Origin: an uncultured Gammaproteobacteria bacterium
GTDB lineage: Bacteria; Patescibacteriota; Microgenomatia; Levybacterales; UBA12049
Direction: 5' to 3'
Length of the DNA: 64,000 bases
NCBI GenBank assembly: GCA_964637955.1
Contig: CAZWXQ010000001.1
Span: forward strand, 118,993-182,992
Shown here: in pieces, positions 2,040 through 16,802 of the stretch
Position numbering within the stretch: the first letter of the stretch is position 1
How the letters are laid out: every line of letters begins with the position of its first letter
Made by a program: the position numbers and the translations under genes
Notes under the pieces: generated by a model
What the model was told of the DNA's origin: nothing
What the model saw: the letters and a program-made list of their open reading frames with translations, nothing else
Database searches by the model: none

Positions 2040-2075
2040 CTGAGAGTCCCGGTCTCGAACCATTTAATCATTATA
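2040..2075. repeat. 36-bp direct repeat copy 1 (ctgagagtcccggtctcgaaccatttaatcattata); candidate left att site of integrated element
   Basis: 35/36 nt identical to 16767-16802 in same orientation; lies in non-coding gap after clpC-like gene. Confidence 0.6.
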
Positions 2076-2079
2076 ACTT

Positions 2080-2142
2080 AAAGGGCAAGTTAGCTCCTTT
2101 TGGGCTTCTCACTTCTCCTCAAGCAACTCCCACTTGCCCTTT
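2080..2142. other. Long stem-loop: 11-bp perfect inverted repeat (aaagggcaagt / acttgcccttt) enclosing a 41-nt pyrimidine-rich loop, immediately downstream of repeat copy 1
   Basis: Read directly from sequence; arms at 2080-2090 and 2132-2142. Confidence 0.5.
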
Positions 2143-2221
2143 CTCAGATTGTATCAGTTTATGGCTAAATGAGACATGTAAGACATTTAAAAATAGTTTC
2201 TAAATCCTTTGAATTTGGTTA

Positions 2222-2256
2222 TTGACATATACCCTTATGGGGTATACGATATTGAA
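2222..2256 (+). promoter_or_regulatory. csoR promoter with embedded CsoR-type operator: -35 TTGACA (2222-2227), GC-tract palindrome TATACCC-N5-GGGTATA (2228-2246) overlapping spacer/-10 (TACGAT 2245-2250); start codon 7 nt after the -10 (leaderless-like)
   Basis: Palindrome matches the known CsoR operator architecture (e.g. B. subtilis copZA operator ATACCC...GGGGTAT); consensus -35 hexamer. Confidence 0.6.
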
Positions 2257-2529
2257 ATGAAAACACATTACGAAGATGCCAAAGAAAATGCGCAAAAAAG
2301 ATTAAACATCATTAAGGGTCAAATAGAAGGTCTTCAGAAGATGGTTGAGAATGATGAATATTGTATGGATTTATTAAACCAAAGCCTAGCAATACAGAAC
2401 TCCCTAAAAAGCTTAGATGCAGTTCTTTTTGAAAGACATCTTAAGACTCATGTTATGCATCAAATGCAAGAAGCCCCAGAAAAAGCCATAGAAGAAGTTT
2501 TAACTTTATTCAAAAAAGTAGATAAATAA
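2257..2529 (+). CDS. csoR: CsoR/RcnR-family copper-sensing transcriptional repressor (Cys-His-Cys ligand set present: YCMD...HLKTHV... )
   Basis: Protein aligns by eye to CsoR (RLxxIxGQIxGLQKMVENDxYCxDLLxQ). The true start is likely the ATG at 2257, because the upstream part of the 2209 ORF is the promoter/operator. Confidence 0.8.
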   Translation: MKTHYEDAKENAQKRLNIIKGQIEGLQKMVENDEYCMDLLNQSLAIQNSLKSLDAVLFERHLKTHVMHQMQEAPEKAIEEVLTLFKKVDK

Positions 2530-2539
2530 GGAAAATTAA

Positions 2540-4828
2540 ATGGAGACTCAAACATTTGATGTTATCGGAATGCACTGCGCTTCCTGCAGTAATATAATAA
2601 GTAAGAAGCTAAAAAAGCTCCCCGGAATTGAGTCGTGCGATGTAAATTTTGCTACAGAAAAAGCTAAAGTTAAGTTTGATTCATCCCAAGTCAATGAGGA
2701 TAAAATGAATTCTGAAATAAAGAAATTAGGATATGCATTCTCCTCTAAAGACCACACGATGATGAACTCAATGAGTGGAATGAAAAGAATGGATCATTCA
2801 CAGCATCTTGGCTTAAACCAATCTAAAGAAGCTAAGATAAAAGAGTTAAAAGAGATGATGAAAAAATTATTATTTGTTCTTCCTTTTACCGCAATTATTT
2901 TTACTTATATGATGTGGGAGATTTTAGCTAAGTTCATTCCTCAAATCCCGTCCTTAGATTTCTCAATGAGATATCTAAACACCTTCATGTTCTTGGTTAG
3001 TATTATCACTCTCTTCTGGGTAGGAAAGCCATTTATCGAAGGAGTTACTAGATTTATTAAATACAGAGCCGCAAATATGGATACGCTTATTGGAATCGGA
3101 ACTCTTACTGCATTTATTTATAGCAGCATCATTTTTCTTTTTCCTGAAGTAGCAACATTTATAAATGCTCCTGAATATGTGTATTTCGATGTCGTAATTG
3201 TAGTAATAGGATTTGTCACTTTAGGTAAATACTTGGAAACAAGATCCAAGATTAAAACTGGAGAAGCCATTGAAAAACTTATGGAGCTTGGAGCGAAAAC
3301 TGCAATTGTAAAAAGAGATGGGAAGGAATTAGAAATTCCTATTAATGAGGTGAAGATTGATGATGTTATTGTAGTAAAACCAGGTTCCAAAATCCCAACT
3401 GACGGAATAATTACAGAGGGAAAATCTAGTATTGATGAATCCATGATCAGTGGAGAGCCTATTCCTGTAGAGAAAAAAGAAGGAGACTTAGTAATCGGTG
3501 GAACGTTAAATAAACAAGGAGGGTTTCTATTTAAAGCAACCAAAGTTGGATCTGACACTATGCTTTCTCAGATCATAAAGATGGTCGAAGAGTCACAGAA
3601 TTCCAAAGCAGAAATTCAAAATTTAGCTGACAAGGTTTCATCATATTTTGTTCCAGTAGTTCTGGGTTTTGCCTTAGTAACCTTTTTTATTTGGATTACG
3701 GTTGGATTCCATTTTCTTGGTATGTCTCAAGCATTTTCTTATGGATTATTATCATTTGTAGGAATTCTAGTTATTGCATGCCCCTGTGCGCTTGGTCTTG
3801 CTATTCCAACTGCTTTAATTGTGGGTACTGGCAAAGGAGCACAGAATGGAATTCTCATTAAAAATGCAAATAGTCTTGAAAATCTTTATAAAGTTAAAAC
3901 TCTTGCTCTTGACAAGACTGGGACTATAACAAATGGAAAACCAGAAGTGACAGATGTAATTAGTCTAAGTAGCGATTATTCTGAAAAACAAATAATTGGC
4001 TTTAGCGCTAGTGTTGAAAGTTTTTCAAGTCATCCCCTAGCTATAGCTGTTATCGATAAAGCAAAAAAAGATAATGTCAAGCTTGTCAAAGCAGATGACT
4101 TCGAAGAAAAAGAAGGATCAGGAGTGAATGCAGTTATAGGTGGATATAAAGTTGAAATTAGAAAACCTAATTTAGAAGAATCAGAAAAATTATCAAGCTA
4201 TTTAAAGGATGGAAAGACAGTTATTTCAGTTGTGATTGAAAATGAATTAGTTGGCGCACTAGTAATTAACGATACAGTTAAAAGTAACGCAATTGAGTCA
4301 ATTAAAAAATTAAAAAAGATGGGAATAAAAACAGTGATGATTACAGGAGATAATAAAAAAGCTGCTGAGTATATTGGAGATAAAACGGGAATTGATAAAG
4401 TCATCTCTGAAGTCATCCCACAAGAAAAAGCAAAGATTATTGATGATTTAAAAGAGGATAATAATTCACTTGCTATGGCAGGAGATGGAATAAATGATGC
4501 ACCAGCGCTATCTCGTGCTGATGTTGGAATTGCTATGGCAACAGGAACAGACATTGCAATTGAGTCATCTGATATAGTTCTACTTAATGGTGATATTTCT
4601 AAAATTCCTCAAGCTTTTAAGCTTTCAAAGTTAACCATGAGAACAGTAAAGCAAAACTTATTCTGGGCATTTATTTATAACATAGTTGGTATTCCAATCG
4701 CAGCTGGAATCTTGTATCCTTTCTTCGGAATTGTTCTAAATCCAGTATTAGCTGGAATGGCTATGGCACTCTCATCCGTATCAGTTGTTGCAAATTCTTT
4801 ATTACTTAAAAGAGCAAAATTAGTATGA
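2540..4828 (+). CDS. copA: Copper-translocating P1B-type ATPase: N-terminal HMA domain (GMHCASC), CPC motif, DKTGT phosphorylation site, GDGINDAP
   Basis: All canonical P1B-ATPase motifs present in translation; SD-like aagga 8 nt upstream. Confidence 0.92.
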   Translation: METQTFDVIGMHCASCSNIISKKLKKLPGIESCDVNFATEKAKVKFDSSQVNEDKMNSEIKKLGYAFSSKDHTMMNSMSGMKRMDHSQHLGLNQSKEAKIKELKEMMKKLLFVLPFTAIIFTYMMWEILAKFIPQIPSLDFSMRYLNTFMFLVSIITLFWVGKPFIEGVTRFIKYRAANMDTLIGIGTLTAFIYSSIIFLFPEVATFINAPEYVYFDVVIVVIGFVTLGKYLETRSKIKTGEAIEKLMELGAKTAIVKRDGKELEIPINEVKIDDVIVVKPGSKIPTDGIITEGKSSIDESMISGEPIPVEKKEGDLVIGGTLNKQGGFLFKATKVGSDTMLSQIIKMVEESQNSKAEIQNLADKVSSYFVPVVLGFALVTFFIWITVGFHFLGMSQAFSYGLLSFVGILVIACPCALGLAIPTALIVGTGKGAQNGILIKNANSLENLYKVKTLALDKTGTITNGKPEVTDVISLSSDYSEKQIIGFSASVESFSSHPLAIAVIDKAKKDNVKLVKADDFEEKEGSGVNAVIGGYKVEIRKPNLEESEKLSSYLKDGKTVISVVIENELVGALVINDTVKSNAIESIKKLKKMGIKTVMITGDNKKAAEYIGDKTGIDKVISEVIPQEKAKIIDDLKEDNNSLAMAGDGINDAPALSRADVGIAMATGTDIAIESSDIVLLNGDISKIPQAFKLSKLTMRTVKQNLFWAFIYNIVGIPIAAGILYPFFGIVLNPVLAGMAMALSSVSVVANSLLLKRAKLV

Positions 4829-5853
4829 ATTTAGGATTAATATTCTTAACAGGTTTAACTATAGGAGGACTCACATGTCTAGCGGTTCAAGGTGGCCTTT
4901 TGGCTTCAGTTATCGCATCTAGAGAAAAAGAAGGTATCGAAAAAAAAGGAAAAGTTGATAGAATATTCCCAACTCTAGCTTTTCTTTTAGCCAAACTTTT
5001 TGCATATACTACGCTTGGCCTTGTTCTTGGAGCACTAGGATCATTTATAAGTTTAACATCTCAAGTTCAATCTTTTATTCAATTAATGGCTGGAGTTTAT
5101 ATGATAATAATTGCATTAAATTTACTTGATGTTCATCCGATTTTTCGTTATGCAGTAATCCAGCCACCTAGATTTTTAACTAAAAGAATAAGAAATCAAT
5201 CTAAAAGCTCTGATATATTTGCTCCGGCTATGTTGGGTTTAATGACCATATTTATTCCCTGTGGTACTACCCTTGCTATGGAAGCATTAGTCATAAGTAC
5301 TGCAAGCCCTATTAAGGGCGCATTGATAATGGCTACTTTTGTACTTGGGACATTTCCGATGTTTTTTGGAATTGGATATGTTACTTCTCTGCTTGGCGAA
5401 AAATTTAAAGACAATTTCTTAAGAATTGCAGCGGTATTATTATTTTTCTTAGGATTTCTATCAATATATGGCGGAATGGTGGCATTAGGTGTACCAATAT
5501 CAGTCTCTAAAGTTACAGCGTTATACAAAGTTAATTCTAATAATAGTTCTGGAAATATGTCTGTTGCTTATCCTCCTGTAAAAAATGGTTTTCAGGAAAT
5601 ATTAATTAATGTAAGTAGTAGTGGCTACACTCCGAATAATATAATTCTTAAGGCTGGTGTTCCCACCAAGCTAAATTTAAGGACCAGTAATGCGTATTCA
5701 TGTGCAATTGCATTTAGAATTCCATCTCTTAAGATGGGTGTTAATTTAAAACCTGACGGATTACAAACCTTAGAGCTGCCAAAGCTTGCTAAAGGTGACT
5801 ATTCATTTAATTGTTCTATGGGAATGTATACGGGGGTGATTAAAGTCTTATGA
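4825..5853 (+). CDS. Polytopic membrane protein (Cys-containing TM helices) with C-terminal cupredoxin_1-like putative Cu-binding domain (…KAGVPTKLNL…YSFNCSMGMYTGVIKV)
   Basis: Hydrophobic N-terminal two thirds; C-terminal ~100 aa resemble the Pfam Cupredoxin_1 pattern (C…CxMGM); start overlaps copA stop (ATGA coupling). Confidence 0.55.
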   Translation: MNLGLIFLTGLTIGGLTCLAVQGGLLASVIASREKEGIEKKGKVDRIFPTLAFLLAKLFAYTTLGLVLGALGSFISLTSQVQSFIQLMAGVYMIIIALNLLDVHPIFRYAVIQPPRFLTKRIRNQSKSSDIFAPAMLGLMTIFIPCGTTLAMEALVISTASPIKGALIMATFVLGTFPMFFGIGYVTSLLGEKFKDNFLRIAAVLLFFLGFLSIYGGMVALGVPISVSKVTALYKVNSNNSSGNMSVAYPPVKNGFQEILINVSSSGYTPNNIILKAGVPTKLNLRTSNAYSCAIAFRIPSLKMGVNLKPDGLQTLELPKLAKGDYSFNCSMGMYTGVIKVL

Positions 5854-6065
5854 AGAAAATAGTATTAGATATTCATGGAATGCACTGTAATAGTTGTGCT
5901 ATGAATATTGATTTTGATCTGGAAGATCTAGAAGGAATAAAAGAATCTAAAACAAGCTATGCAAAACAAAAATGTGAAGTAGAGTTTGATGAAGAGAACA
6001 TCTCTGAGAAAGAAATATTAAAGCAAATAAAGGAAACTGGATATGACGCTAGTTTAGCTAATTAA
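5850..6065 (+). CDS. copZ: CopZ-like heavy-metal-associated (HMA) copper chaperone, MHCNSC metal-binding motif
   Basis: 71-aa ORF with GMxCxxC ferredoxin-like HMA signature. Confidence 0.8.
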   Translation: MKKIVLDIHGMHCNSCAMNIDFDLEDLEGIKESKTSYAKQKCEVEFDEENISEKEILKQIKETGYDASLAN

Positions 6066-6067
6066 AC

Positions 6068-6583
6068 ATGAAAAGATTATTAGTAGTAATAGGTTCAATT
6101 ATATTTGTCATTCTAATTATTTTATTTGGATATAAGATCTACAGTAAAGTAACAGTTCCAAAGAAGGTCCACTATCACGCAGGTTTCATAGTTTTCAAAG
6201 ACAATAAGAAAATAAACTTCTCAGATTTTAAATATATGTATGAAAAGCCATGCACTATTAATGGAAAAGAGAATGAAGAAAGCGAAAATGAAAAATTAGA
6301 AAAAGCACATCTTCATGATAATGTTGGCGATGTCGTACATATTGAAAAATCTGGAGCTAAGTGGGGAGATTTATTTACAAATATTAAATATCCAATAGAT
6401 AAAGATGCAATTATTTATATAAACGGTAAGGAGATTAAAAACTTCCAAAAACTTTCCATTAAACCTTATGATTCCTTGGTTATGTTCATTGGGAGTAACA
6501 ATGTAAACGAGGATATAAAACAGGCACTTACGCAAAAATACATAGAAGAAATGGGAAGTAAGAGTAAAACTTGTGGTGACTAG
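6068..6583 (+). CDS. Membrane-anchored hypothetical protein with His-containing motifs (HYHAGF, HLHDNVGDVVH); part of copper cluster
   Basis: N-terminal TM helix, no recognisable family; operon position. Confidence 0.35.
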   Translation: MKRLLVVIGSIIFVILIILFGYKIYSKVTVPKKVHYHAGFIVFKDNKKINFSDFKYMYEKPCTINGKENEESENEKLEKAHLHDNVGDVVHIEKSGAKWGDLFTNIKYPIDKDAIIYINGKEIKNFQKLSIKPYDSLVMFIGSNNVNEDIKQALTQKYIEEMGSKSKTCGD

Positions 6584-6599
6584 TAAAGGAGGTGATTGA

Positions 6600-7046
6600 A
6601 TGAAAAAAGAATATTTATATGGATTAATAGGATTATTGGGAGGAATAATAATTGCATTTGTGTTTTCAGCGTCAATTGTTAAAAGCAATAATACAAATAT
6701 GATGAAAATGATGGGAATTTACGCCGTAAAAGATAATGATGATCAAGCGAATATGCCGGTTAAGCAGCACATGATGACTAGCGGAAATATGATGGGAAAT
6801 GATGAAGGCAATTCAATGACAATGAATGATATGGTTTCTGGATTAAATGGAAAAACAGGAGATGCTTTTGACAAGGCATTTATTGCAGAAATGATTCCAC
6901 ATCATCAAGGCGCAATTGATATGGCAAAACTTGTTGAAGAGAATGCAAAACATCAAGAGCTTAAAGATCTTGCTAAAGACATAATTACTGCACAGACAAA
7001 TGAAATTAAGCAGATGAGGCAGTGGCAAGCAGCTTGGGGATATTAA
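6600..7046 (+). CDS. DUF305-family protein with N-terminal TM helix and Met-rich (MMKMMG, MMTSGNMMGN, SMTMNDM) putative Cu(I)-binding region
   Basis: C-terminal half matches DUF305 signature (EMIPHHQGAIDMA...); Met-rich motifs typical of periplasmic copper binders; SD aaaggagg upstream. Confidence 0.6.
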   Translation: MKKEYLYGLIGLLGGIIIAFVFSASIVKSNNTNMMKMMGIYAVKDNDDQANMPVKQHMMTSGNMMGNDEGNSMTMNDMVSGLNGKTGDAFDKAFIAEMIPHHQGAIDMAKLVEENAKHQELKDLAKDIITAQTNEIKQMRQWQAAWGY

Positions 7047-7140: not shown

Positions 7141-7983
7141 CTACGACGCAGGATTTTCTAGGCTTTTAGAATACTTATTGAATCTGGTAAATTCAGTCGG
7201 ATTATAAGCATTATATATTTGTAAAAAGATTTGAAGTGTTGCGCAATAGCAAATATAGCTAACCGCTAAAATTCTCTCCGCGTCATCTGGTTTTGAATCA
7301 ATATCTAAAAAAGGCTCACGTGCTGATGCAGGGCCTCTCATATATCTTGTGAGTCCAGGCATCGTTGAATGAACTGAGTCAGAAAAATATGGATAAAATA
7401 ATGTATAAAACTTTTCCGCACTGTTATTTTCAGAAAATTTTCCAATTTTTTTAAGATGAGCGTCTATTGCGATTGTTCTGTCAAATAAAGTTGGTAGTTT
7501 GTTAACATTTTTATCTTTATATCGCTTTCTATCTTTGCTTAATAATTCAGAATTCTCTTTAATGAATATTTCCCAGTCGCCGGCTTTCTTAATTGTCCCA
7601 AATTCCATATTCCAAGTAGGATATTTATCCCAGAGTCTTTTGTGTCTTTTTGCAAATTCATTGGATTGCATGATTAGATCAGATAAAAACAATCTTGCTT
7701 TATCTTCGGATCTACTCGAATATATAAATCTTATATTTAGCCAAATTTCGAACTGCGATCTTAACAAGGATTCTCCTGGCTTTTCATAAGTAGGTGAAGA
7801 TCCCATGAGTTTTAAAATACTCTCCGAATAGCTTTGTGAGGCGCCCATCATAAAATATAAGATTCTTTTTCTTACTCTTACTCTTTTTAGATCTAAAGGG
7901 ATAGAGCTTATCTTTTTAAATCCATATACTAACGCCTCATGATATTCGTTAATTAATTCTTTTTGTTTTTCATTAAATTCCAT
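7141..7983 (-). CDS. Hypothetical protein (280 aa), no confident family assignment
   Basis: Long ORF with coding-like composition; first gene of phage-like module. Confidence 0.4.
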   Translation of the reverse strand: MEFNEKQKELINEYHEALVYGFKKISSIPLDLKRVRVRKRILYFMMGASQSYSESILKLMGSSPTYEKPGESLLRSQFEIWLNIRFIYSSRSEDKARLFLSDLIMQSNEFAKRHKRLWDKYPTWNMEFGTIKKAGDWEIFIKENSELLSKDRKRYKDKNVNKLPTLFDRTIAIDAHLKKIGKFSENNSAEKFYTLFYPYFSDSVHSTMPGLTRYMRGPASAREPFLDIDSKPDDAERILAVSYICYCATLQIFLQIYNAYNPTEFTRFNKYSKSLENPAS

Positions 7984-8050
7984 AATATTGCCAATGCAAA
8001 ATATAAATTTCTCGCCATAAAAAGTTCTCGTTATTTAATTGGTCTAATTT

Positions 8051-8278
8051 TTATCCTCTTGGTGGAAATGGATCATTTCCGTAAGTCCATTCAGTGCGAA
8101 ATTGACCACCTACTCCTTGAATTAGAATCTGTGATAAGGTTCCAGCAGGTAAACCACCAACATGTTGTTTTGCAGCTTTTATTGCTTCTGCCTGAGTAGA
8201 ATAAAAACCTTCATTGCAATGTTCGCATTGTACCTTCCATTGATTTCCATGGGATAAAACATATACTTTTTGTCTCAT
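8051..8278 (-). CDS. DUF2188-family small protein
   Basis: Matches DUF2188 pattern (…hGnqWkV…AeAikaAkq…G…ndpfP). Confidence 0.5.
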   Translation of the reverse strand: MRQKVYVLSHGNQWKVQCEHCNEGFYSTQAEAIKAAKQHVGGLPAGTLSQILIQGVGGQFRTEWTYGNDPFPPRG

Positions 8279-8340
8279 TTATTTCTCACCTCCTTTGACC
8301 CCCTCTAAGAGAAATATAAAAGAGAAGGGTACTTTTTGAA

Positions 8341-8643: not shown

Positions 8644-8657
8644 GTCAATACTTATTT

Positions 8658-9993: not shown

Positions 9994-11349
9994 ATGGCAC
10001 AAGATTTGAAAATATCTCAAATAAAGATAAATGAACTTAACCCTGCTGAATATAACCCCAGGAAATGGGACGAAACCTCTATTGCTCAACTTACCGAAAG
10101 CATTAAGAGATTTGGATTTGTAGATCCCATAATCGTAAACGGCGCTGAGAGCAGGAGAAACGTGGTTATAGGCGGACATTTTCGTCTGAAAGTCGCAAGG
10201 GATCTAGGCTTTACGGAAATTCCAGTTGTATATATTAATATACCTGAAATTGAAAAAGAAAAAGAGTTAAATCTTCGTTTAAATAAAAACACAGGTGAGT
10301 GGGATTATGAATTACTTGCTTCATTTGATGAATCAATACTTAACGATATAGGTTTTAACTCTGAAGAATTAGATGAAATTTTCAATTTTGATGATAATCC
10401 AGATGAATTCGATTTACAAAAAGAGCTTCAGAAATTGCAGATTAATAAAATTGAGATACAAAAAGGTGATGTCTGGGCTTTAGGTGAAAGTAAGCTTATG
10501 TGTGGTGATTCGACTTTTGAACAGGATATCCTAAAACTCATGGATGGGGAGAAAGCAGCTATGTGTTTTACAGATCCACCTTATATATTAGATTACCTTC
10601 ATGGAAAAAAGAAAAACGGAAAACCGGCTACAGGATTTGGTGCAAAAAGAGACAGAAGATATCTTGAAACCGATGTTCTCCCATCAAATTTTACAGAGTT
10701 GTGGATGGCTAATATTGCAAAAATTCAGAATGAGCATTTTTCAATAATAGTTTATGAGAATTGGAAGAATATAAGAACCATTTGGGATGAGATGGAAAAG
10801 TATTGGAAAGTTAAAAATATGCTTGTTTGGCATTTACCTAATAGGCACCAGGGTTTCTCAGCTAAGTATAAGTTCTTTTCAAAGCATGATATAGCAATGG
10901 TGGGTGCATCGCCAAACACAGATGTTCAATTTAATGCAGATAATGAAAAAGATGGTTTGCAAGAAGAATATGAAACCGCGCTATATGCAATTTCTGGCAA
11001 ACCACATTGGGAAGGTTATCAAAGAGGAAGGAAAAATCAGCCAACAGATTTTATTGAATATGTTGCTTCGGACGAAAAGCATTCAGGGCAAGGAATTATT
11101 TTTGGAACAAAACCAATCGAGATATTAATCCCATATATAAAAATGTTAACTAAAAGAGGAGATTTGATAATTGAACCTTTTGGAGGATCAGGATCAACTT
11201 TGATAGCTTCAGAAAAGATGAAACGACGATGTTTCATTATGGAAAAATCTCCAGTATATGCTGAAGTGATTAAAAAGCGATGGGAAAACTTAACAGGTCA
11301 GAAAGGAGTGAGGATTGCATGTGGGATAAAATCGAAAAAAGACAATTAA
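9994..11349 (+). CDS. ParB-like nuclease domain fused to beta-class N6-adenine/N4-cytosine DNA methyltransferase (motif IV DPPY precedes motif I EPFGGSGST)
   Basis: N-terminal ParB/Srx-like motifs (…GGHFRLKVARDLG…); MTase motifs in beta-class order; typical phage/plasmid architecture. Confidence 0.8.
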   Translation: MAQDLKISQIKINELNPAEYNPRKWDETSIAQLTESIKRFGFVDPIIVNGAESRRNVVIGGHFRLKVARDLGFTEIPVVYINIPEIEKEKELNLRLNKNTGEWDYELLASFDESILNDIGFNSEELDEIFNFDDNPDEFDLQKELQKLQINKIEIQKGDVWALGESKLMCGDSTFEQDILKLMDGEKAAMCFTDPPYILDYLHGKKKNGKPATGFGAKRDRRYLETDVLPSNFTELWMANIAKIQNEHFSIIVYENWKNIRTIWDEMEKYWKVKNMLVWHLPNRHQGFSAKYKFFSKHDIAMVGASPNTDVQFNADNEKDGLQEEYETALYAISGKPHWEGYQRGRKNQPTDFIEYVASDEKHSGQGIIFGTKPIEILIPYIKMLTKRGDLIIEPFGGSGSTLIASEKMKRRCFIMEKSPVYAEVIKKRWENLTGQKGVRIACGIKSKKDN

Positions 11350-11744
11350 AAAATAAGCAGGAACTTCTTGAGCAACTTAAGAAAACACCAATAATCCAAA
11401 TAGCCTGTGGTAAATCAAATATAAGTCGTGCCACATACTATCGCTGGCGAAATGAAGATAAAGAGTTTGCTCAGAGCGCTGATAAGGCTATTGATGAAGG
11501 TTCAGCCTTAGTTAATGATATTGCTGAATCTCAATTATTGAATGCGATTAAACAGCAAAATTTAACTGCCATTATTTTCTGGTTGAAGCACCATCACGCA
11601 GCCTACGCCAACAAGATCGAGTTAACAGCAAGATTTAAAGCAGACGAGGAAATACTAACTCCTGAGCAGGAAAAGTTAGTGACTAGAGCACTAAAAATAG
11701 TATCTTTAATGCCTAAGGAGGATAAGGATGTTAACTCAAAATGA
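11319..11744 (+). CDS. Putative phage terminase small subunit (HTH-containing; …ISRATYYRWRNEDKEF…)
   Basis: Position immediately upstream of and overlapping terminase large subunit; RBS aaaggag 10 nt upstream of ATG at 11319; the 11280 start in ORF track overlaps MTase. Confidence 0.5.
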   Translation: MWDKIEKRQLKNKQELLEQLKKTPIIQIACGKSNISRATYYRWRNEDKEFAQSADKAIDEGSALVNDIAESQLLNAIKQQNLTAIIFWLKHHHAAYANKIELTARFKADEEILTPEQEKLVTRALKIVSLMPKEDKDVNSK

Positions 11745-13221
11745 GATTGAAGAATTAAAAAAGAAAAGATCTGTCAGAAGAGCAATTTCAAAAAGAAGTC
11801 ATTACTGGTTTTTTTCAATATATTTAAATCACTACATTAAATATCCATTTGCTCAGTTTCACATTGAAATGTTTCACTTAACGGAAAACGAGGCTTTAAG
11901 GTTGGCAGTTCTTGTTGCATTTAGAGGATCTGGAAAATCCACTCTAATAACTCTTTCCTATGTAATCTGGTCAATAATTGGAGTTCAAAACAAGAAGTTT
12001 GTTTTAGTATTAAGTCAGACTCAGGCTCAGGCGAAACTACATTTAGCCAACATAAAAAGAGAGCTTGAGAGCAACGATTTATTAAAAGCAGATATAGGAC
12101 CGTTTGAAGAAATAAGTGATGAATGGGGTTCAAATTCAATAGTAATTTCAAAATTTGGAGCAAGAATTACTGTTGCTTCAACAGAACAAAGCATAAGAGG
12201 ATTAAGACATGGACAACATCGACCAGATTTAGTGATTTGTGATGATGTTGAAGACTTAAATTCAGTAAAGACTAAAGAAGGAAGAGATAAAACTTTCCAA
12301 TGGCTTGCTGGAGAAGTTTTGCCAATTGGAGATCAAAACACAAAAATAGTAATAGTTGGAAATCTTCTTCATGAAGATAGTCTCTTAATGAAATTAGTTA
12401 ATGCTATAAAAAATGGAAAATTAAATGGAAAATATTTTTCTTATCCTCTACTTGATGATGAAAATAATATTACATGGCCAGAGAAGTTTAAATCAAAGAC
12501 TGATATCGAAAATTTAAGAACTTCTATAGGAACAGATAGCGCATGGTATAGGGAGTATTTGCTTAAAATAATTTCAGATGCTGATAGGCTTGTTCATCCT
12601 GAATGGATTCAATATTACAATGAGATTCCTTCTGAGGAAAATGGGCATTTTATGTATACAGCTACAGGAATTGATCTTGCTATTTCAGAGAAAGAATCAG
12701 CAGATTATACAGCTATGGTGTCGGCCAAAGTTTATGGAAGCGGAGAAAATTTAAAGGTTTACATACTCCCTAACCCTATAAATAAAAGAATGAGTTTTCC
12801 AGAAACATATGAAACGGCTAAAATGATTTCTAAGGAATTAGGAAATGGATATTATACAAAGTTATTTATTGAAGATGTTGGCTATCAAAGAGCTTTAATT
12901 CAGAATTTATCTAATAATAATATTCCTGCTGAAGGGGTTAAGGTTTCTGGTCAGGATAAAAGAAGTAGACTTGCATTAGTTACTCATTTGATAGAGCAAG
13001 GAAAAATTATATTTCCCGATCAAGATAGATGTAGAAATTTGATACTACAACTTACTGGTTTTGGATTAGAAAAACATGATGATCTTGCAGATGCATTTTC
13101 TCTTCTAATGTTAAAAATAATTGAGGAAGATTCAGGAAGTGTAGGCTTCTTCTTTATAGGTGGTTCAGATCTATCTAGTTTTTCAGACTACAGACCCTTG
13201 AGCTTCAATCAGCCATTTTAA
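11728..13221 (+). CDS. Phage terminase large subunit (Walker A RGSGKST, Walker B VICDDVED, C-terminal nuclease region)
   Basis: Motif content and size typical of Terminase_6-type TerL. Confidence 0.8.
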   Translation: MLTQNEIEELKKKRSVRRAISKRSHYWFFSIYLNHYIKYPFAQFHIEMFHLTENEALRLAVLVAFRGSGKSTLITLSYVIWSIIGVQNKKFVLVLSQTQAQAKLHLANIKRELESNDLLKADIGPFEEISDEWGSNSIVISKFGARITVASTEQSIRGLRHGQHRPDLVICDDVEDLNSVKTKEGRDKTFQWLAGEVLPIGDQNTKIVIVGNLLHEDSLLMKLVNAIKNGKLNGKYFSYPLLDDENNITWPEKFKSKTDIENLRTSIGTDSAWYREYLLKIISDADRLVHPEWIQYYNEIPSEENGHFMYTATGIDLAISEKESADYTAMVSAKVYGSGENLKVYILPNPINKRMSFPETYETAKMISKELGNGYYTKLFIEDVGYQRALIQNLSNNNIPAEGVKVSGQDKRSRLALVTHLIEQGKIIFPDQDRCRNLILQLTGFGLEKHDDLADAFSLLMLKIIEEDSGSVGFFFIGGSDLSSFSDYRPLSFNQPF

Positions 13222-13424
13222 AAAAGATCAGATAGTTGAACTTTAAGAGCTTTGGAAATTTTATCAATTGTTTGAACCGGCGGATTACTTATACCCCTTT
13301 CGATTCTGGAAATTGTAGTATAGTGCAGGCCAACTCTATCAGCTAATTCTTCTTGTGACATTTTCTTGTCTCTCCTAGCTTTTCTAATTCTTTTACCTAG
13401 TTTTTCGTTAACTTTATATTTCAC
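13218..13424 (-). CDS. XRE-family HTH transcriptional regulator (Cro/CI-like)
   Basis: …MSQEELADRVGLHYTTISRIERG… canonical HTH_XRE. Confidence 0.8.
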   Translation of the reverse strand: MKYKVNEKLGKRIRKARRDKKMSQEELADRVGLHYTTISRIERGISNPPVQTIDKISKALKVQLSDLF

Positions 13425-13557: not shown

Positions 13558-14052
13558 ATGAACTGGATTAAAAAACATAAAATAGTGTCAGGAATTATTG
13601 GAGTTGTCGCATTTTTTATAATAGTTGGAGCTTTAGGTTCAAGCAGTACAACAACTAAATCAGAATCAACTAACTCTACTTCTGTCAAAAGTCAATCAAA
13701 TAATGCTGAACCAACAGCAACAATTGAAAACAAGCAGCCCAATGTTCCAGCGGAATATAAATCAGCACTCAAGAAAGCAACTAGCTATGCGACTATAATG
13801 CATATGTCAAAAAGAGGTGTATATGACCAGTTAGTCTCAGACTATGGTGAAAAGTTTTCGCCAGAAGCTGCACAGTATGCAATTGATAATGTGAAAGCTG
13901 ATTGGAATGCAAATGCTTTAGCTAAAGCAAAGAGCTATCAAGAGCAACAGAGTATGTCACCTGCTGCCATTCAAAATCAATTAATATCTGATTACGGTGA
14001 AAAGTTCACGCAAGCGGAAGCAGATTATGCTATTCAACACCTAAGTAAATAG
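13558..14052 (+). CDS. Ltp-family (host cell surface-exposed lipoprotein-like) protein with N-terminal TM anchor and two tandem Ltp repeats (…QLVSDYGEKFSPEAAQYAI… / …QLISDYGEKFTQAEADYAI…); candidate superinfection-exclusion protein
   Basis: Tandem repeat with conserved D-Y/F-G-E-K-F…A-x-YA motif characteristic of the Ltp superinfection-exclusion family; low-complexity linker. Confidence 0.6.
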   Translation: MNWIKKHKIVSGIIGVVAFFIIVGALGSSSTTTKSESTNSTSVKSQSNNAEPTATIENKQPNVPAEYKSALKKATSYATIMHMSKRGVYDQLVSDYGEKFSPEAAQYAIDNVKADWNANALAKAKSYQEQQSMSPAAIQNQLISDYGEKFTQAEADYAIQHLSK

Positions 14053-14325
14053 CGGGAGTTAGTAGTAGCTAAGCGGTGAAGCAAGAACAAGAAAAACATT
14101 CGATATTAAAATCGCATGTTTTTCTTTGGATTAAATATAGTATTTTAAGCCTAGACTTAATCAAAATCCTGCGGTACTGTGTACTCAAATGAATACAGAG
14201 GCAGGAATACTTAAGCTAATAACTAGATGCGAGAATTACTTCTATAAGTACCTCTTAACACAAGATAAATCATACATAGACAAATACTTTAAAACTTCAA
14301 GTCAACTCAAAAGAAAGGTTAAGAA

Positions 14326-15618
14326 ATGGAAAATGAAATAAAAGCACCCATAGATTACTGTTTGTATGCTCGAAAATCTACAGAAGATGATGAAAGACAA
14401 GCAATGAGTATAGATTCTCAAATTAAAGAGATGTCTGAAATGGCTTTAAAGGAAGAGATATTCATAAAAGAAATCCGACAAGAAAAGCATTCAGCGAAAA
14501 TGTCAGGGCAAAGGCCTGTTTTTAATCAGCTATTAGCAGATATAAAAAGTGGTATGTTTAGGGGAATATTAACTTGGGCGCCTGACAGGTTAAGCAGAAA
14601 TGCAGGAGATTTAGGCGTGCTTGTAGATTTAATGGATCATGGCAAGTTAACTAATATTAAAACATATACTCAGGCCTTCACAAATAGTCCTAGCGATAAG
14701 TTTTTACTCATGATTCTTTGCTCTCAAGCAAAACTCGAAAATGATCAGAAAGGAATAAATGTTAAAAGAGGGATAAGAGCCAAATGTCAGATGGGATGGA
14801 GACCTGGTGTTCCGCCAACAGGTTATTTTAATAGAACAATGAATGGGGTTAAAGATATAATCCCCGATCCTCAACGAGCTCCATTTATAACCGAAATGTT
14901 TCAAAGAGTTGCCGATGGACAAAGTGGTTGGGATATAAAAAGATGGTTTGATAAATCTGGAATGACTACTAGATCTGGAAAAAAAGTTTACTTAGGCAAT
15001 TTATATCTTATGCTGAAAAATTCATTTTATTATGGAGAATTTGAATACCCTATTAATAGTGGTAATTGGTATAAGGGAAAACATAAACCATTAATAACAA
15101 AAATTCTATTTGATAAAGTACAAAATCAGCTTATTACTTCAACTAAATCAGATTGGGGCAGTAATATTGCTCCATTCAAAGGATTATTTAGATGCGGAAC
15201 ATGTGGGAAAAAACTAATTGGCGAAGAAAAAATCAGAAAAAGAAAATGGGGAGCCCCCATAAGACATGTTTATTACCACTGTGCCCGAAACCTTAGTGAT
15301 TGCTCAGAGCCATATATAAGTGAGGAAAAATTAATAAAACAAATTCTTAGATATATTAATTTCATGAGTATCGCGCATCCTAATTTCCTCAAGCTAACAG
15401 ACCCTTTACATATAAGTTTGTTGTCATATAGCTTAATTAGAAATGAAGTACTTTATGAGCAAGATATTAATCCAAATGATCAAAAATCCGATCCGGTAAA
15501 TTTTAGTAGATATATTCTGAATAAAGGGTCCGTTGATGAAAAAAGAGACTTAGTTATGTCTTTAGGGAAGCAGATGTATATTAAAAATAAGTATTTGGTT
15601 TCCTCTGTATCTGAATAA
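14326..15618 (+). CDS. Large serine recombinase (resolvase catalytic domain YARKSTEDDERQ…, recombinase domain, zinc beta-ribbon CGTCGKK…HVYYHCAR)
   Basis: Domain organisation from translation. Confidence 0.85.
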   Translation: MENEIKAPIDYCLYARKSTEDDERQAMSIDSQIKEMSEMALKEEIFIKEIRQEKHSAKMSGQRPVFNQLLADIKSGMFRGILTWAPDRLSRNAGDLGVLVDLMDHGKLTNIKTYTQAFTNSPSDKFLLMILCSQAKLENDQKGINVKRGIRAKCQMGWRPGVPPTGYFNRTMNGVKDIIPDPQRAPFITEMFQRVADGQSGWDIKRWFDKSGMTTRSGKKVYLGNLYLMLKNSFYYGEFEYPINSGNWYKGKHKPLITKILFDKVQNQLITSTKSDWGSNIAPFKGLFRCGTCGKKLIGEEKIRKRKWGAPIRHVYYHCARNLSDCSEPYISEEKLIKQILRYINFMSIAHPNFLKLTDPLHISLLSYSLIRNEVLYEQDINPNDQKSDPVNFSRYILNKGSVDEKRDLVMSLGKQMYIKNKYLVSSVSE

Positions 15619-15684
15619 TTCATAAAATATTATCCTTAATTTGCCTCAATTCAATCTATAGGATAAAATGCTGCATATAAATTT

Positions 15685-16710
15685 ATGAATCATTTTGAAA
15701 GCAGCAATCTGGATAAAATTTTCTATCTTAATCCCAGTAAAAATCATTTAATAGGATCAAGAGAGTCGACCGTACTTGAATTTAAGGAAAATTTTTCTTT
15801 TGCAAATCTAGCGGATTACGCTAAAGTAATGGCTTCTTTTGCAAACAAAGATGGAGGCTATATAGTTTTTGGTTTAGAAGATAATCCTAGAAAGATTGTT
15901 GGAATCGATAGGAATACTTTCGATACTATTGATCAAGCCAAATTAACTGAGGGATTAAATGATATATTTCAGCCTGCAATGGAATGGGATATTGCAGTTC
16001 ATGATTGGAATGGATTTTCATTTGGAATAATTTATGTATTTAAGACTGTTCAAAAGCCTATCATTGCAAGAAAAAATTATGGTTCCGAAATTAAGGAAGG
16101 TGAAATTTATTATAGATATAGAGCTAGATCGGAGAAAATTAAATATTCTGAGTTGCGTCATTTACTTGATGAGCAAAAGGAGTTGACCAATGAAGCATGG
16201 AGAAAAGTTATAGAAAAGGCTTCATCGATCGATCCTAGAAATGTAGCTATGTTAGATACGATAACAGGTGAATTAACAGGAGATGGAGGAACAGTAGTAA
16301 TAGATGAGTCATTAATATCTAAATTGAAATTTATAAGGGATGGAGATTTTAATCAAAAAGATGGTGCTCCAACTCTTAAGCTTATAGGTGATCTTCAGGC
16401 TGTTCCTGTAGCAGCTGTAAAGAGTAAAAAAGTACTTATTGGGGAAGATATTTATAAATTTAGAGCTTCGCAGGTTGCAAAAGAAGTTCAGTCAGGTATA
16501 GCTAAAAATTTTAGTATTCAGCTACATACTAAGGCATGGAAAATGTATGAATCGAGACCTAAAGAGAAAAATTCGGGTTTTAAAAATGAATTTTCAGAAT
16601 TAAAGCAAGCCGAAAACGATTATCGATATTCTCAAGCATGGATCGATTTTCTGATAAATAAATTAAAAACTGATCAGGAATATCAAAAATTATTAGATTT
16701 CAAAATATAA
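15685..16710 (+). CDS. AlbA_2 (Schlafen-like putative DNA-binding, PF04326-like) domain protein (…EsTvLEFKEnfS…FANkDGGYIVFGLEDNpRKIVGI…)
   Basis: N-terminal motif set matches AlbA_2 domain; C-terminal region unassigned. Confidence 0.6.
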   Translation: MNHFESSNLDKIFYLNPSKNHLIGSRESTVLEFKENFSFANLADYAKVMASFANKDGGYIVFGLEDNPRKIVGIDRNTFDTIDQAKLTEGLNDIFQPAMEWDIAVHDWNGFSFGIIYVFKTVQKPIIARKNYGSEIKEGEIYYRYRARSEKIKYSELRHLLDEQKELTNEAWRKVIEKASSIDPRNVAMLDTITGELTGDGGTVVIDESLISKLKFIRDGDFNQKDGAPTLKLIGDLQAVPVAAVKSKKVLIGEDIYKFRASQVAKEVQSGIAKNFSIQLHTKAWKMYESRPKEKNSGFKNEFSELKQAENDYRYSQAWIDFLINKLKTDQEYQKLLDFKI

Positions 16711-16766
16711 TTTAAATTTTAGAGAGCTGAATGGCGAGGGTACGGTGGGGCGATAGTAATAGTGTG

Positions 16767-16802
16767 CTGAGAGTACCGGTCTCGAACCATTTAATCATTA
16801 TA
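16767..16802. repeat. 36-bp direct repeat copy 2 (ctgagagtaccggtctcgaaccatttaatcattata); candidate right att site
   Basis: 35/36 identity with 2040-2075. Confidence 0.6.

What the first reader, a model, noticed from the sequence alone, without database searches (positions are those of the whole stretch)
2040..16802. 14.8-kb region bounded by near-perfect 36-bp direct repeats: candidate integrated element carrying copper resistance plus a phage-like module
Two copies of ctgagagt(c/a)ccggtctcgaaccatttaatcattata (35/36 identical, same orientation) lie at 2040-2075 and 16767-16802. Between them sit csoR-copA-cupredoxin membrane protein-copZ-DUF305, then the LexA-like repressor, ParB-MTase, terS/terL, XRE, Ltp, a large serine recombinase and an AlbA_2 protein. 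That content is typical of mobile DNA, and the repeats would be the att core. Caveat: the only recombinase seen is a serine type, and those normally leave a 2-bp crossover rather than long direct repeats. The repeats could therefore reflect another mechanism, a lost tyrosine integrase, or nested elements.
Basis: seen in the sequence. Interest (0 to 1): 0.75.

Follow-up and report, generated by a model that had tools for sequence, protein, structure and literature searches.

The report
Stacked serine-recombinase island with tRNA-mimic ends
The two 36-base repeats are real and mark the left ends of two mobile units stacked inside a 22-kb island of an ultra-small (CPR) bacterium; the first unit belongs to a widespread, apparently undescribed family of capsid-less elements that carry a serine integrase and phage packaging genes and normally insert beside tRNA genes.

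Summary
In detail: 35/36-identical direct repeats lie at 2040-2075 and 16767-16802, and the gene content is as described.

- **Empty site.** Two relatives (ClpC 86% and 77% identical) have ClpC followed within about 50 nt by the zinc-ribbon gene that sits at 23987 here. The insertion is therefore about 22 kb (about 1987 to 23940). The right repeat is an internal junction, not the island edge.
- **Family.** The bounded 14.7 kb is one complete unit of a recurrent Patescibacteria element: LexA-like, about 200-aa protein, ParB-methylase, TerS, TerL, XRE, cargo, large serine recombinase, cargo. In all 38 metagenome loci with a tRNA within 6 kb right of the recombinase, that tRNA is on the opposite strand. 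None of 63 has a tRNA within 3 kb on the left.
- **The 36-mer.** It begins at an invariant CTG and matches, in register, the 3' end of tRNA-Gln. It is the best-kept part of a left-end module of about 110 nt that also holds an operator- and promoter-like block. This module recurs at element ends in other genomes.
- **Recombinase.** The serine recombinase is the cognate integrase. No tyrosine integrase is needed.
- **Best model.** Unit E1 integrated into the left-end site of a resident, recombinase-less unit E2.

The parts
10..1986 (+). Host clpC, 3' part. The full protein is 786 aa; the window cuts off the first 128 aa. It is the left host flank of the island.
   Evidence: Pfam AAA_2/ClpB_D2-small. 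The 100% match P0122 is 786 aa, and homologues are named ClpC/ClpA across Microgenomates. It is syntenic in the empty-site loci L104 and L105.
1987..2039 (+). Left arm of the left junction. This is island DNA, not host. It contains a CCGAACGCCAGCTTTTG block (2005-2021) that is homologous to sequence inside the right ends of related elements. It also contains GTTCGA (2023-2028), which mirrors TCGAAC (2055-2060) around TG 2041-2042.
   Evidence: Absent from the empty sites L104 and L105. The CCGAAC block also occurs in L020 and L009 upstream of their right junctions. A 6-mer dyad at this spacing occurs at about 3e-4 of random centres.
2040..2075 (+). Left copy of the 36-bp repeat. It consists of the invariant CTG (putative crossover region) plus a tRNA-Gln-3'-end-mimic half-site, and is the start of left-end module U' of unit E1.
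   Evidence: It aligns in register with the tRNA-Gln 3' ends of relatives (C1 T2 G3 ... T16 C17 G18 A19 A20 C21 C22).
2076..2160 (+). Unique insert of about 85 nt that forms an 11-bp-stem hairpin. It interrupts the left copy of U'.
   Evidence: Alignment A4. No other copy in the window or in 107 loci, and predicted fold energy -18.7 kcal/mol.
2161..2206 (+). Left copy of the GGCTAAA/(T)GAGACA operator-like block of U'.
   Evidence: Motif and nhmmer hits. 36/53 identity to the right copy.
2257..7046 (+). Copper-resistance cargo: csoR (promoter TTGACA-17-TACGAT at 2222-2250, overlapping an ATACCC-N5-GGGTAT palindrome), copA 2540-4828, DsbD_2-cupredoxin 4825-5853, copZ 5850-6065, a 171-aa protein, and DUF305 6600-7046.
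   Evidence: Pfam and promoter scan. Homologous copper cargo occurs in L012/L013, L090 and L076.
7141..8592 (-). Leftward genes: DUF5677 (7141-7983), DUF2188 (8051-8278) and an 83-aa protein (8341-8592). The DUF2188 gene divergent from the LexA-like gene is conserved in L017.
   Evidence: Pfam. L017 gene table.
8658..13424 (+). Conserved core module: LexA-like repressor 8658-9263, p218 9263-9919, ParB_N-DNA methylase 9994-11349, TerS about 11319-11744, TerL 11728-13221, and XRE 13218-13424 (minus strand).
   Evidence: Pfam and PHROGs. The same order occurs in L006, L007, L009, L013, L017 and many metagenome loci, at 45-77% identity. ParB-MTase plus TerS lie upstream of the recombinase in 27 of 41 loci with at least 5 kb of left flank.
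13558..14052 (+). Ltp superinfection-exclusion lipoprotein, in the cargo slot between XRE and the recombinase.
   Evidence: Pfam Lipoprotein_Ltp 1.6e-46. phrog_4980 1.3e-59.
14326..15618 (+). Large serine recombinase (430 aa), the element's integrase.
   Evidence: Resolvase, Recombinase and Zn_ribbon_recom domains. phrog_95 integrase 2.8e-62. The YARKSS catalytic motif is invariant in 30 homologues. Thousands of 60-79% identical homologues exist, and all those that carry a name are from Patescibacteria.
15685..16710 (+). AlbA_2 (Schlafen-like) protein, in the cargo slot after the recombinase. It is a candidate defence gene.
   Evidence: Pfam. PADLOC candidates PDC-S19 and PDC-S50. In relatives this slot holds R-M systems, or a helicase plus SIR2, and an AlbA_2 homologue in L066.
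16716..16766 (+). Right arm ('P arm') of E1, with GAGGGTACGGT at 16736-16746.
   Evidence: Conserved in L020, L009, L012 and L017, and as a second subtype in L030, L032, L033 and L026. It always ends at G|CTG.
16767..16802 (+). Right copy of the 36-bp repeat. It is the start of left-end module U' of the second unit (E2), joined to E1's right arm.
   Evidence: The same P-arm|CTG|U' junction is seen in L020, L030 and L033.
16803..17067 (+). Remainder of U' of E2: the GGCTAAA/AGACA block (16818-16857), a promoter-like site at 16907-16935 (11/12 match, with TG), and a 41-aa ORF at 16942-17067.
17160..23940 (.). Rest of the island, unit E2, which has no recombinase. It holds a five-gene minus-strand operon of 136, 236, 62, 375 (beta-CASP) and 991 aa (17160-22654), then a MazE-PhoU fusion at 22867-23850 (+). 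The right boundary is near 23940.
   Evidence: Absent between ClpC and the zinc-ribbon gene in L104 and L105. Pfam. No PADLOC hits.
23950..24523 (+). Host DNA resumes with the promoter region and the Zn_ribbon_TFIIB gene (23987-24523). AAA_28, adenylosuccinate lyase-HAD, nusA and infB follow.
   Evidence: Alignment with the empty sites. Synteny at 66-91% identity. Pfam.

Best explanation
The window carries an island of about 22 kb inserted between host clpC and a zinc-ribbon gene. The island is a stack of at least two units of one family of integrative elements found in Patescibacteria.

**Unit E1 (2040-16766) is complete.** From left to right it has:
- a left-end module U' (CTG, a 33-nt half-site that imitates the 3' end of tRNA-Gln, then an operator- and promoter-like block);
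- copper-resistance cargo;
- a conserved core (LexA-like repressor, p218, ParB-methylase, TerS, TerL, XRE);
- Ltp cargo;
- a large serine recombinase;
- AlbA_2 cargo;
- a conserved right arm.

**How the repeats arose (inferred).** Relatives of this recombinase join their right arm to the 3' end of a tRNA gene at an invariant CTG. Here the right arm is instead joined to the U' module of a second unit, E2, which has no recombinase. The most likely history is that E1's recombinase recombined E1's attP with the attB-like site formed by the left end of resident E2. That site is usable because U' mimics the tRNA target. The two 36-mers are therefore the recombinase-recognised half-sites of two related left ends. 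Their near-identity reflects target recognition, not a 36-bp crossover.

**Shown**
- the repeat itself;
- the empty site;
- the family architecture;
- the tRNA association and its strand bias;
- the junction register.

**Inferred**
- the crossover at TG of CTG;
- the order of events;
- that TerS and TerL serve packaging into capsids of a helper phage;
- that the LexA-like and XRE proteins control induction through the GAGACA boxes.
For: **Empty sites.** L104 and L105 have clpC followed within about 50 nt by the zinc-ribbon gene, then AAA_28, ASL-HAD, nusA and infB. They contain no 36-mer, no U' and no island genes.

**Family architecture.** The same architecture occurs in L006, L007, L009, L012/L013, L017, L020 and dozens of the loci L024-L103.

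**tRNA association.**
- 31 of 61 loci with at least 1 kb of right flank have a minus-strand tRNA within 3 kb right of the recombinase.
- The first tRNA within 6 kb on the right is on the minus strand in 38 of 38 loci.
- 0 of 63 loci have a tRNA within 3 kb on the left.

**Junction alignment.** The conserved right arm is followed by the invariant CTG, then either tRNA-Gln (L009, L012, L017, L032, L026) or U' (window, L020, L030, L033). TCGAACC sits in the same register in both.

**U' is element-borne and a left end.**
- A profile search finds U' only on the recombinase strand.
- It lies left of recombinase units that end at a tRNA in L044, L026, L058, L038 and L042. It also lies left of the recombinase in L078 and L047, whose right ends were not resolved.
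- Its first bases match the 3' end of the tRNA at the other end of the unit: TGTGAGCC in L044, TGGCAG in L038, CGGA in L058.

**Stacking recurs in the family.**
- In L026 the U' is preceded by another right arm.
- In L033 a duplicated right arm flanks a 1-kb cassette.

**E1 is a single unit.** There is no internal U' or right-arm copy between 2207 and 16715.

**The recombinase looks intact.** All three domains and the catalytic motif are present.

**Precedent.** Tandem arrays of integrative elements are an established phenomenon (PMC7192596; tycheposons, bioRxiv 10.1101/2020.12.28.424599).
Against: - No tRNA gene exists anywhere in the window or in the empty sites. How the first unit reached the clpC/zinc-ribbon intergenic region is therefore unexplained.
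- E2 has no recognisable right arm and none of the family core genes. That it is a family member rests only on its U' module.
- Canonical large serine recombinases do not recombine attP with attL. They need P-type spacing on both attP half-sites. Here U' has the spacing of the tRNA (B') half-site, so the proposed reaction is non-canonical.
- Identity falls from 35/36 to 36/53 right at the end of the 36-mer. That would also fit a crossover or a gene-conversion boundary at that point.
- The left arm (1987-2039) carries a block homologous to element-internal sequence, so a third, mostly deleted unit may be involved.
- No excised circle or E1-less variant appeared in the two samples that hold this genome.
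Confidence: 0.6

Rival explanations
1. Classical single insertion. The 36-mer is the attP/attB identity segment, and crossover occurs within it or at its right edge. The DNA to the right of 16802 was simply the target: an older, unrelated island that happened to carry a pseudo-tRNA secondary attB. It is not a second unit of the same family.
For: - Sharp repeat boundaries, and the drop in identity after position 36.
- L042 shows an exact 21-bp repeat equal to the 3' end of tRNA-Gln(ttg) at both ends of a 3.4-kb recombinase unit. Long identity segments therefore do occur in this family.
- E2 has no family core genes.
Against: - The sequence right of the 36-mer (the GGCTAAA block) is conserved in other genomes, where it lies at the left ends of recombinase units. 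It also lies at E1's own left end.
- In the junction alignment, homology between tRNA-type and U'-type junctions switches at the CTG at the left edge of the 36-mer, not at its right edge.
Confidence: 0.2
2. The repeats are two copies of a portable regulatory module (promoter and operator cassette U'). They were spread by homologous recombination or duplication, and have no role as recombination sites in this locus. The island was assembled elsewhere and acquired in one piece.
For: - U' contains GAGACA/TGTCTC boxes and is followed by promoter-like sites and varied downstream genes.
- There is no sign of current mobility.
- Tetranucleotide composition of the island lies within the host range.
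Against: - The right arm joins U' precisely at the same CTG in the window and three other genomes (L020, L030, L033). That position is equivalent to the one where relatives join a tRNA.
- U' matches the tRNA 3' end in register.
- There is dyad symmetry around TG 2041-2042.
Confidence: 0.1
3. A tyrosine integrase, now lost or acting in trans, created the 36-bp repeats, and the serine recombinase is unrelated to them.
For: Repeats of 36 bp are typical of tyrosine-integrase elements at tRNA genes (general knowledge).
Against: - No tyrosine recombinase was found among the Pfam-scanned ORFs from 1 to 37.6 kb, nor in the gene tables of the related loci that were fetched with Pfam annotation.
- The serine recombinase keeps a fixed position and orientation relative to the conserved right arm and the tRNA in dozens of loci.
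Confidence: 0.03
4. The phage-like module is just a decayed prophage remnant. The association with the repeats and the copper genes is fortuitous.
For: Only TerS and TerL of the virion genes are present. There are no portal, capsid, tail or lysis genes.
Against: - The same capsid-less set, with intact ORFs, recurs in 27 of 41 loci across many hosts and tRNA targets. The proteins are 45-77% identical.
- Close TerL relatives in IMG/VR contigs are likewise followed by R-M cargo, not structural genes.
- Random decay would not give one conserved architecture.
Confidence: 0.07

Closest known systems
SCC elements of staphylococci (SCCmec, ACME, composite islands) moved by the Ccr large serine recombinases (from my own knowledge, not tested here)
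   Same: - Cargo islands moved by large serine recombinases.
- They insert at the 3' end of a conserved gene.
- They are flanked by direct repeats longer than 2 bp, because the integration-site sequence is present at both ends.
- They are often stacked in tandem, with internal repeats, and include recombinase-less units.
   Different: - The target here is a tRNA 3' end or a mimic of it, not rlmH.
- The elements carry TerS, TerL and a ParB-methylase.
- The host is Patescibacteria.
- The recombinase is a distinct family of about 430 aa.
Tycheposons of Prochlorococcus (bioRxiv 10.1101/2020.12.28.424599)
   Same: - Small cargo-carrying integrative elements at tRNA genes in streamlined genomes.
- Successive integrations push older elements inward.
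- Partial tRNAs and tandem junctions are present.
- Some members resemble phage satellites and carry terS.
- A minority use a large serine recombinase.
   Different: - Most tycheposons use tyrosine recombinases and carry replication modules.
- Here the recombinase is always the serine type, both terminase subunits are present, and no replication gene was recognised.
Phage satellites (PICI-like elements)
   Same: - Size of about 6-15 kb.
- Integrase, repressor(s) and a terminase small subunit.
- No capsid, tail or lysis genes.
- Accessory and defence cargo.
   Different: - TerL and ParB-methylase are also present.
- No primase or replication-initiator module was found.
- The integrase is a serine recombinase.
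- The helper phage is unknown, and induction cannot be tested here.
Tandem arrays of integrative genetic elements at one attB (PMC7192596)
   Same: A second element integrates into an att site that was regenerated at the end of a resident one, giving internal repeats and hybrid islands.
   Different: This is described mainly for tyrosine integrases, which need only core identity. For a large serine recombinase it requires the tRNA-mimic end proposed here.
Filamentous phage phiRSM, whose resolvase-like serine recombinase integrates at a tRNA-Ser gene. The reference title is cited in PMC7192596; the tRNA-Ser target is from my own knowledge.
   Same: A serine recombinase that uses the 3' end of a tRNA gene as attB.
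   Different: It is a small serine recombinase of an inovirus, with unrelated gene content.

Membership tests
Large serine recombinase (serine integrase) | N-terminal resolvase catalytic domain with the serine nucleophile | tested here: met
   PF00239 3.9e-20. The Y-A-R-K-S-S motif is invariant in 30 homologues.
Large serine recombinase (serine integrase) | Recombinase domain plus zinc-ribbon domain C-terminal to the catalytic domain | tested here: met
   PF07508 3.4e-12 and PF13408 8.2e-09. phrog_95 integrase.
Large serine recombinase (serine integrase) | att sites with imperfect dyad symmetry around a 2-bp crossover, and attP and attB half-sites that differ in motif spacing | tested here: inconclusive
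   The left junction has GTTCGA/TCGAAC symmetric about TG 2041-2042, and CTG is invariant at all junctions. However, U' has the spacing of the tRNA half-site, and no P/P' symmetry was seen.
Large serine recombinase (serine integrase) | Recombination directionality factor that controls excision | not tested
   No candidate was identified. Small ORFs (for example 14189-14341) were not examined.
Integrative genetic element / genomic island | Present in one genome and precisely absent from the orthologous site of relatives | tested here: met
   L104 and L105 join clpC to the zinc-ribbon gene across about 50 nt. The absent segment is the whole 22 kb, not the 14.7 kb alone.
Integrative genetic element / genomic island | Integrase gene near one end, and direct repeats at the ends | tested here: met
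   The recombinase ends 1.15 kb from the right junction. The repeats are at 2040 and 16767.
tRNA-targeting integrative element | Integrated at a tRNA gene, with a partial tRNA copy at the far end | tested here: not met
   There is no tRNA in the window. The 36-mer only mimics a tRNA-Gln 3' end. The feature is met in relatives (L042 has an exact 21-bp tRNA fragment).
Phage satellite (PICI-like) | Integrase, master repressor and packaging-redirection gene (terS), with no virion structural or lysis genes | tested here: met
   No structural genes appear in any related locus that was examined.
Phage satellite (PICI-like) | Own replication module (primase or replication initiator, plus an origin) | tested here: not met
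   No primase, helicase or replication-initiator domain occurs in E1. p218 remains unassigned.
Phage satellite (PICI-like) | Induction and packaging by a helper phage | not testable with these tools
   This needs a culture or virome read data.
Intact or defective prophage | Portal, capsid, tail and lysis genes, or their remnants | tested here: not met
   Only TerS and TerL are present. The architecture is conserved rather than randomly decayed.
CsoR-CopA-CopZ copper efflux operon | CsoR-type repressor, P1B-type ATPase with an HMA domain, and an HMA chaperone | tested here: met
   PF02583, PF00122 + PF00702 + PF00403, and PF00403. A palindrome ATACCC-N5-GGGTAT lies in the promoter.

The most novel reading that the evidence does not exclude
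Patescibacteria harbour a large, so far undescribed family of capsid-less elements mobilised by a serine recombinase and carrying both terminase subunits. Different recombinase clades have diversified to target the 3' ends of different tRNA genes. Each element carries at its left end a mimic of its tRNA target. Every integration therefore regenerates a landing pad, so units stack into defence and metal-resistance islands. This would be an integron-like accretion mechanism run by a large serine recombinase in organisms with genomes of about 1 Mb.
Probability: 0.35. Interest if true: 0.8.

Novelty: new variant of a known kind. Interest (0 to 1): 0.6.

Why it matters
CPR (Patescibacteria) bacteria have tiny genomes, and little is known about how they gain accessory genes.

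This locus leads to a recurrent, compact vehicle of 6-15 kb. It carries copper resistance, restriction-modification systems, candidate defence genes and superinfection exclusion. It sits at tRNA genes in many lineages.

If the tRNA-mimic 'landing pad' reading holds, it would do three things:
- explain how long direct repeats and stacked islands arise with a serine integrase;
- add tRNA genes to the known target range of large serine recombinases;
- supply a set of short (about 430 aa) integrases with predictable, natural attB sites, which are of practical interest for genome engineering.

The paired TerS/TerL/ParB-methylase module without any capsid genes also points to an unexplored satellite-helper relationship among CPR phages.

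Tried and rejected
- **Structured RNA or tRNA at the repeats.** ARAGORN found no tRNA or tmRNA in the window. Rfam found nothing at gathering thresholds, and nothing meaningful in permissive scans of the junctions. The TGTCTC/GAGACA hairpin shows no compensatory changes in alignment A4.
- **Exact-pattern scans.** The 34-mer and 27-mer gave 0 hits in viral, GTDB-genome and metagenome collections. Two U' patterns gave 0 hits in viral contigs. The 36-mer is therefore not a dispersed repeat in these collections. Its copy number in the rest of the source genome could not be checked.
- **The only GTDB relative of ClpC (L003, 49% identical)** was too distant to define the site.
- **Long direct repeats around related elements.** None of 16 bp or more was found in L009, L012, L013, L017 or L020. 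A targeted search using the sequence at the tRNA end found only L042.
- **Composition.** GC content and tetranucleotide distance of E1, E2 and the copper block lie within the range of host segments. GC skew only follows gene orientation.
- **Evidence of excision or an E1-less variant.** Only the integrated arrangement was found in the assemblies that hold this genome.
- **Function of p218.**
  - The AlphaFold model was unusable (pLDDT 35).
  - A profile search against the PDB found nothing.
  - Pfam gave only weak Trans_reg_C/HTH_11 hints.
- **clpC as cargo of an upstream unit.** This was considered because of a PADLOC DolB hit and rejected. It is the conserved 786-aa housekeeping ClpC, with conserved synteny.
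- **Right end of E2.** No right arm or tRNA remnant was found between 22.6 and 25 kb.

Full report
**1. Observation**

The 36-mer CTGAGAGT(C/A)CCGGTCTCGAACCATTTAATCATTATA occurs twice in the window, at 2040-2075 and 16767-16802. Both copies are on the + strand and they differ by one mismatch. No other copy exists even when 3 mismatches are allowed, and shuffled sequence gave none.

The 40 nt upstream of the two copies are unrelated (10/40 identical). Downstream, the left copy has a unique hairpin insert of about 85 nt (2076-2160). After that insert the two copies align again at 36/53 identity, against 35/36 in the core (Fisher p = 8e-4).

- csoR, copA, DsbD_2-cupredoxin, copZ, a 171-aa protein and DUF305;
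- DUF5677, DUF2188 and an 83-aa protein on the minus strand;
- LexA-like, p218, ParB_N-methylase, TerS, TerL and XRE;
- Ltp, a 430-aa large serine recombinase (LSR), and AlbA_2.

Independent Logan assemblies from two samples reproduce the left junction, the interior and the right junction (L005, L004, L107).

**2. The host and the empty site**

Named homologues of the LSR and of ClpC come from Patescibacteria: Woesebacteria, Levybacteria and 'Patescibacteria group'. ClpC is a 786-aa housekeeping protein, and the window cuts off its first 128 residues.

Two relatives supply the empty site. L104 has ClpC 86% identical, and L105 has ClpC 77% identical. In both:
- clpC is followed after about 50 nt by a Zn_ribbon_TFIIB gene;
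- nusA, infB, S15 and PNPase follow; in L104 AAA_28 and adenylosuccinate lyase-HAD lie between the zinc-ribbon gene and nusA, whereas L105 has a single 271-aa gene there.

This is the order found in the window from 23987 onward, with L104 matching throughout, at 66-91% protein identity.

The relatives hold no 36-mer, no related motif and no island gene. The zinc-ribbon gene's promoter region aligns with window 23950-23986.

The window therefore carries an insertion of about 22 kb, running from just after the clpC stop (1986) to about 23940. The 36-bp repeats bound only its first 14.7 kb.

**3. A recurrent element family**

Contexts of LSR homologues (48-79% identical) were examined in about 100 loci. 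They show one architecture:
- often DUF2188 on the minus strand and a LexA-like gene;
- a protein of about 200 aa, ParB-methylase, TerS, TerL and XRE;
- a cargo slot, the LSR, and a second cargo slot.

Cargo includes:
- copper operons (L012/L013, L090, L076);
- type I, II and ISP restriction-modification systems;
- a helicase with SIR2;
- AlbA_2 (L066);
- a methyltransferase.

None of the loci has portal, capsid, tail or lysis genes. IMG/VR contigs with the closest TerL show R-M cargo after TerL.

ParB-methylase plus TerS lie upstream of the LSR in 27 of 41 loci with at least 5 kb of left flank.

**4. Target: tRNA 3' ends**

Counts from the metagenome loci:

| Measure | Result |
|---|---|
| Minus-strand tRNA within 3 kb right of the LSR (loci with at least 1 kb of right flank) | 31 of 61 |
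| First tRNA within 6 kb on the right is on the minus strand | 38 of 38 |
| Any tRNA within 3 kb on the left | 0 of 63 |

The tRNAs are Gln(CTG/TTG), Asn, Ser(GCT/GGA/CGA), Trp, Lys, Glu and Ala.

In the clade closest to the window's LSR, a conserved right arm (for example GAATCATGAGGGTACGGT, about 20 nt, then G) is joined at an invariant CTG to the 3' end of tRNA-Gln. This is seen in L009, L012, L017, L032 and L026.

In the window, L020, L030 and L033 the same arm is joined at the same CTG to a different partner. That partner is the 36-mer or its homologue, followed by a block rich in GGCTAAA and (T)GAGACA and by promoter-like sequence. I call this partner U'.

The 36-mer aligns in register with the tRNA-Gln 3' end: CTG at positions 1-3, GG at 12-13 and TCGAACC at 16-22. 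It imitates the discriminator base, acceptor strand and T arm. No complete tRNA can be folded, and Rfam finds nothing.

**5. U' is the left end of the elements**

A profile of U' hits only the LSR strand. U' is seen in three positions:

- **After a right arm**: window, L020, L030 and L033. In L041 it lies 1.5 kb right of the LSR, after a terminator-like hairpin rather than a recognisable right arm.
- **To the left of LSR units**:
  - L044: a host terminator, then U', then the unit, then tRNA-Lys.
  - L058: the unit ends at tRNA-Ser.
  - L038: the unit ends at tRNA-Trp.
  - L026: U' is preceded by another right arm, and the unit ends at tRNA-Gln.
  - L042: an exact 21-bp tRNA-Gln(ttg) 3' fragment lies at the left end with a U'-like block about 210 nt inside it, and the unit ends at tRNA-Gln.
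  - L078 and L047: U' lies about 1 kb left of the LSR, but their right ends were not resolved.
- **Alone**: once in L017, 6 kb beyond its tRNA.

The first bases of U' match the 3' end of the tRNA at the other end of the unit: TGTGAGCC in L044, TGGCAG in L038 and CGGA in L058. After these bases U' diverges into a mimic. Nearly the same mimic travels with elements that sit at different tRNAs (L038 and L042), so U' is element-borne.

Stacking recurs in the family. It is seen in L026, and in L033 a duplicated right arm of about 100 nt encloses a 1-kb cassette.

Inside the window's E1 there is no further U' or right-arm copy. The stretch 2040-16766 is therefore a single unit.

**6. Interpretation**

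The left repeat is the start of E1's own left end. The right repeat is the start of the left end of a second, LSR-less unit (E2, 16767 to about 23940), fused to E1's right arm.

The left junction has GTTCGA (2023-2028) and TCGAAC (2055-2060) placed symmetrically about TG 2041-2042. It thus has an attB-like shape. The right junction has right arm + CTG + tRNA-like half-site, which is an attR-like shape.

The simplest history is that E1's attP recombined, at the TG of CTG, with the attB-like site at the left end of resident E2. The near-identity of the two 36-mers would then reflect what the recombinase recognises, and flanking DNA was free to differ.

This reconciles long direct repeats with a serine recombinase. 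It parallels SCC composite islands (from my own knowledge) and the tandem arrays described for integrative elements (PMC7192596) and for tycheposons.

The following remain inferred, not shown:
- the crossover position;
- the order of events;
- whether E2 once had a recombinase;
- how the first unit entered a site without a tRNA;
- the role of TerS, TerL and ParB-methylase. Packaging into a helper phage's capsids is the obvious guess. The conservation of intact genes argues against mere decay.

**7. Rivals**

- **Classical attL/attR reading**, with the crossover at the right edge of the 36-mer. It is not excluded (0.2). The single mismatch at repeat position 9 makes it testable in read data.
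- **Portable promoter cassette** spread by homologous recombination (0.1).
- **Random prophage remnant** (0.07).
- **Lost tyrosine integrase** (0.03).

The last three fit the junction register and the family-wide pattern poorly.

**8. Novelty**

Full-text searches found no description of LSR/terminase elements in Patescibacteria. Papers on horizontal transfer in CPR bacteria and on their prophages describe other things.

As a single locus this is a genomic island of a familiar kind. As a family it looks like a new variant, with four distinguishing features:
- a serine integrase;
- tRNA 3' targets;
- a tRNA-mimic left end;
- both terminase subunits with no capsid genes.

My literature access is partial, so prior description cannot be ruled out.

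Noticed in passing
window 17160-22654 (minus strand): Five-gene operon inside the island: proteins of 991 aa (weak Metallophos hit), 375 aa (beta-CASP/metallo-beta-lactamase, with a weak precomputed Anti-Pycsar_Apyc1 hit), 62 aa, 236 aa and 136 aa. It has no PADLOC match and is absent from the empty-site relatives. It may be an unknown defence or anti-defence system.
   Followed up: partly
window 22867-23850: A MazE_antitoxin-PhoU fusion protein (327 aa) is the last gene of the inserted block. It is followed by a terminator-like hairpin.
   Followed up: no
L033 about 6700-6830 and 7735-7852: The right arm of about 100 nt is duplicated. Both copies end at ...GGAATCTGTG|CTG, and they enclose a methyltransferase-like cassette of about 1 kb. 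The cassette's left end looks like a U' that lacks the T-arm mimic. This would be a recombinase-less mini-unit.
   Followed up: partly
L042 8776-8796 and 12129-12149: An exact 21-bp direct repeat equal to the 3' end of tRNA-Gln(ttg) flanks a 3.4-kb recombinase unit. A second, Trp-type tRNA mimic and a GAGACA block lie about 210 nt inside the left repeat. This suggests a change of target.
   Followed up: partly
L044 1125-2450 and 7602-8969: Two paralogous large serine recombinases (44% identical) lie in one unit, between a U' module and tRNA-Lys. The first starts about 100 nt after U'.
   Followed up: no
L017 20165-20300: A U' module with no right arm beside it lies 6 kb to the right of the occupied tRNA-Gln. 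Between them are the host-like genes DAGK, PAP2 and Lon. It may be the left end of another unit that lies outside the fetched stretch.
   Followed up: no
window 16907-17067: A near-consensus promoter (TTTACA-17-TATAAT with TG) ends 6 nt before a 41-aa ORF, which would give an almost leaderless transcript. The ORF has no family match.
   Followed up: partly
U' in L020, L030, L033, L044 and both window copies: An open frame runs through U' and gives similar peptides (..GLEP..RLNETNETL*). This is probably a by-product of DNA conservation, but it was not excluded as a small protein.
   Followed up: no
window 9263-9919 (p218) and orthologues: This core gene of the family evolves fast: only 38 cluster representatives were found among 1.84 billion proteins. 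Its C-terminal 100 aa or so are conserved and give only weak Trans_reg_C/HTH_11 hints. The AlphaFold model was unusable.
   Followed up: yes
window 23910-23935 versus 1958-1986: The words ATAATT, AGTTTGA and GAGAAAA at the right island boundary also occur at the 3' end of clpC, in a different order. This may be chance in AT-rich DNA, or a trace of the original insertion.
   Followed up: no
window 24729-24953: A small Ala/Pro-rich ORF with a hydrophobic tail lies between the zinc-ribbon gene and AAA_28. It probably corresponds to the 72-aa gene called at the same place in L104.
   Followed up: no
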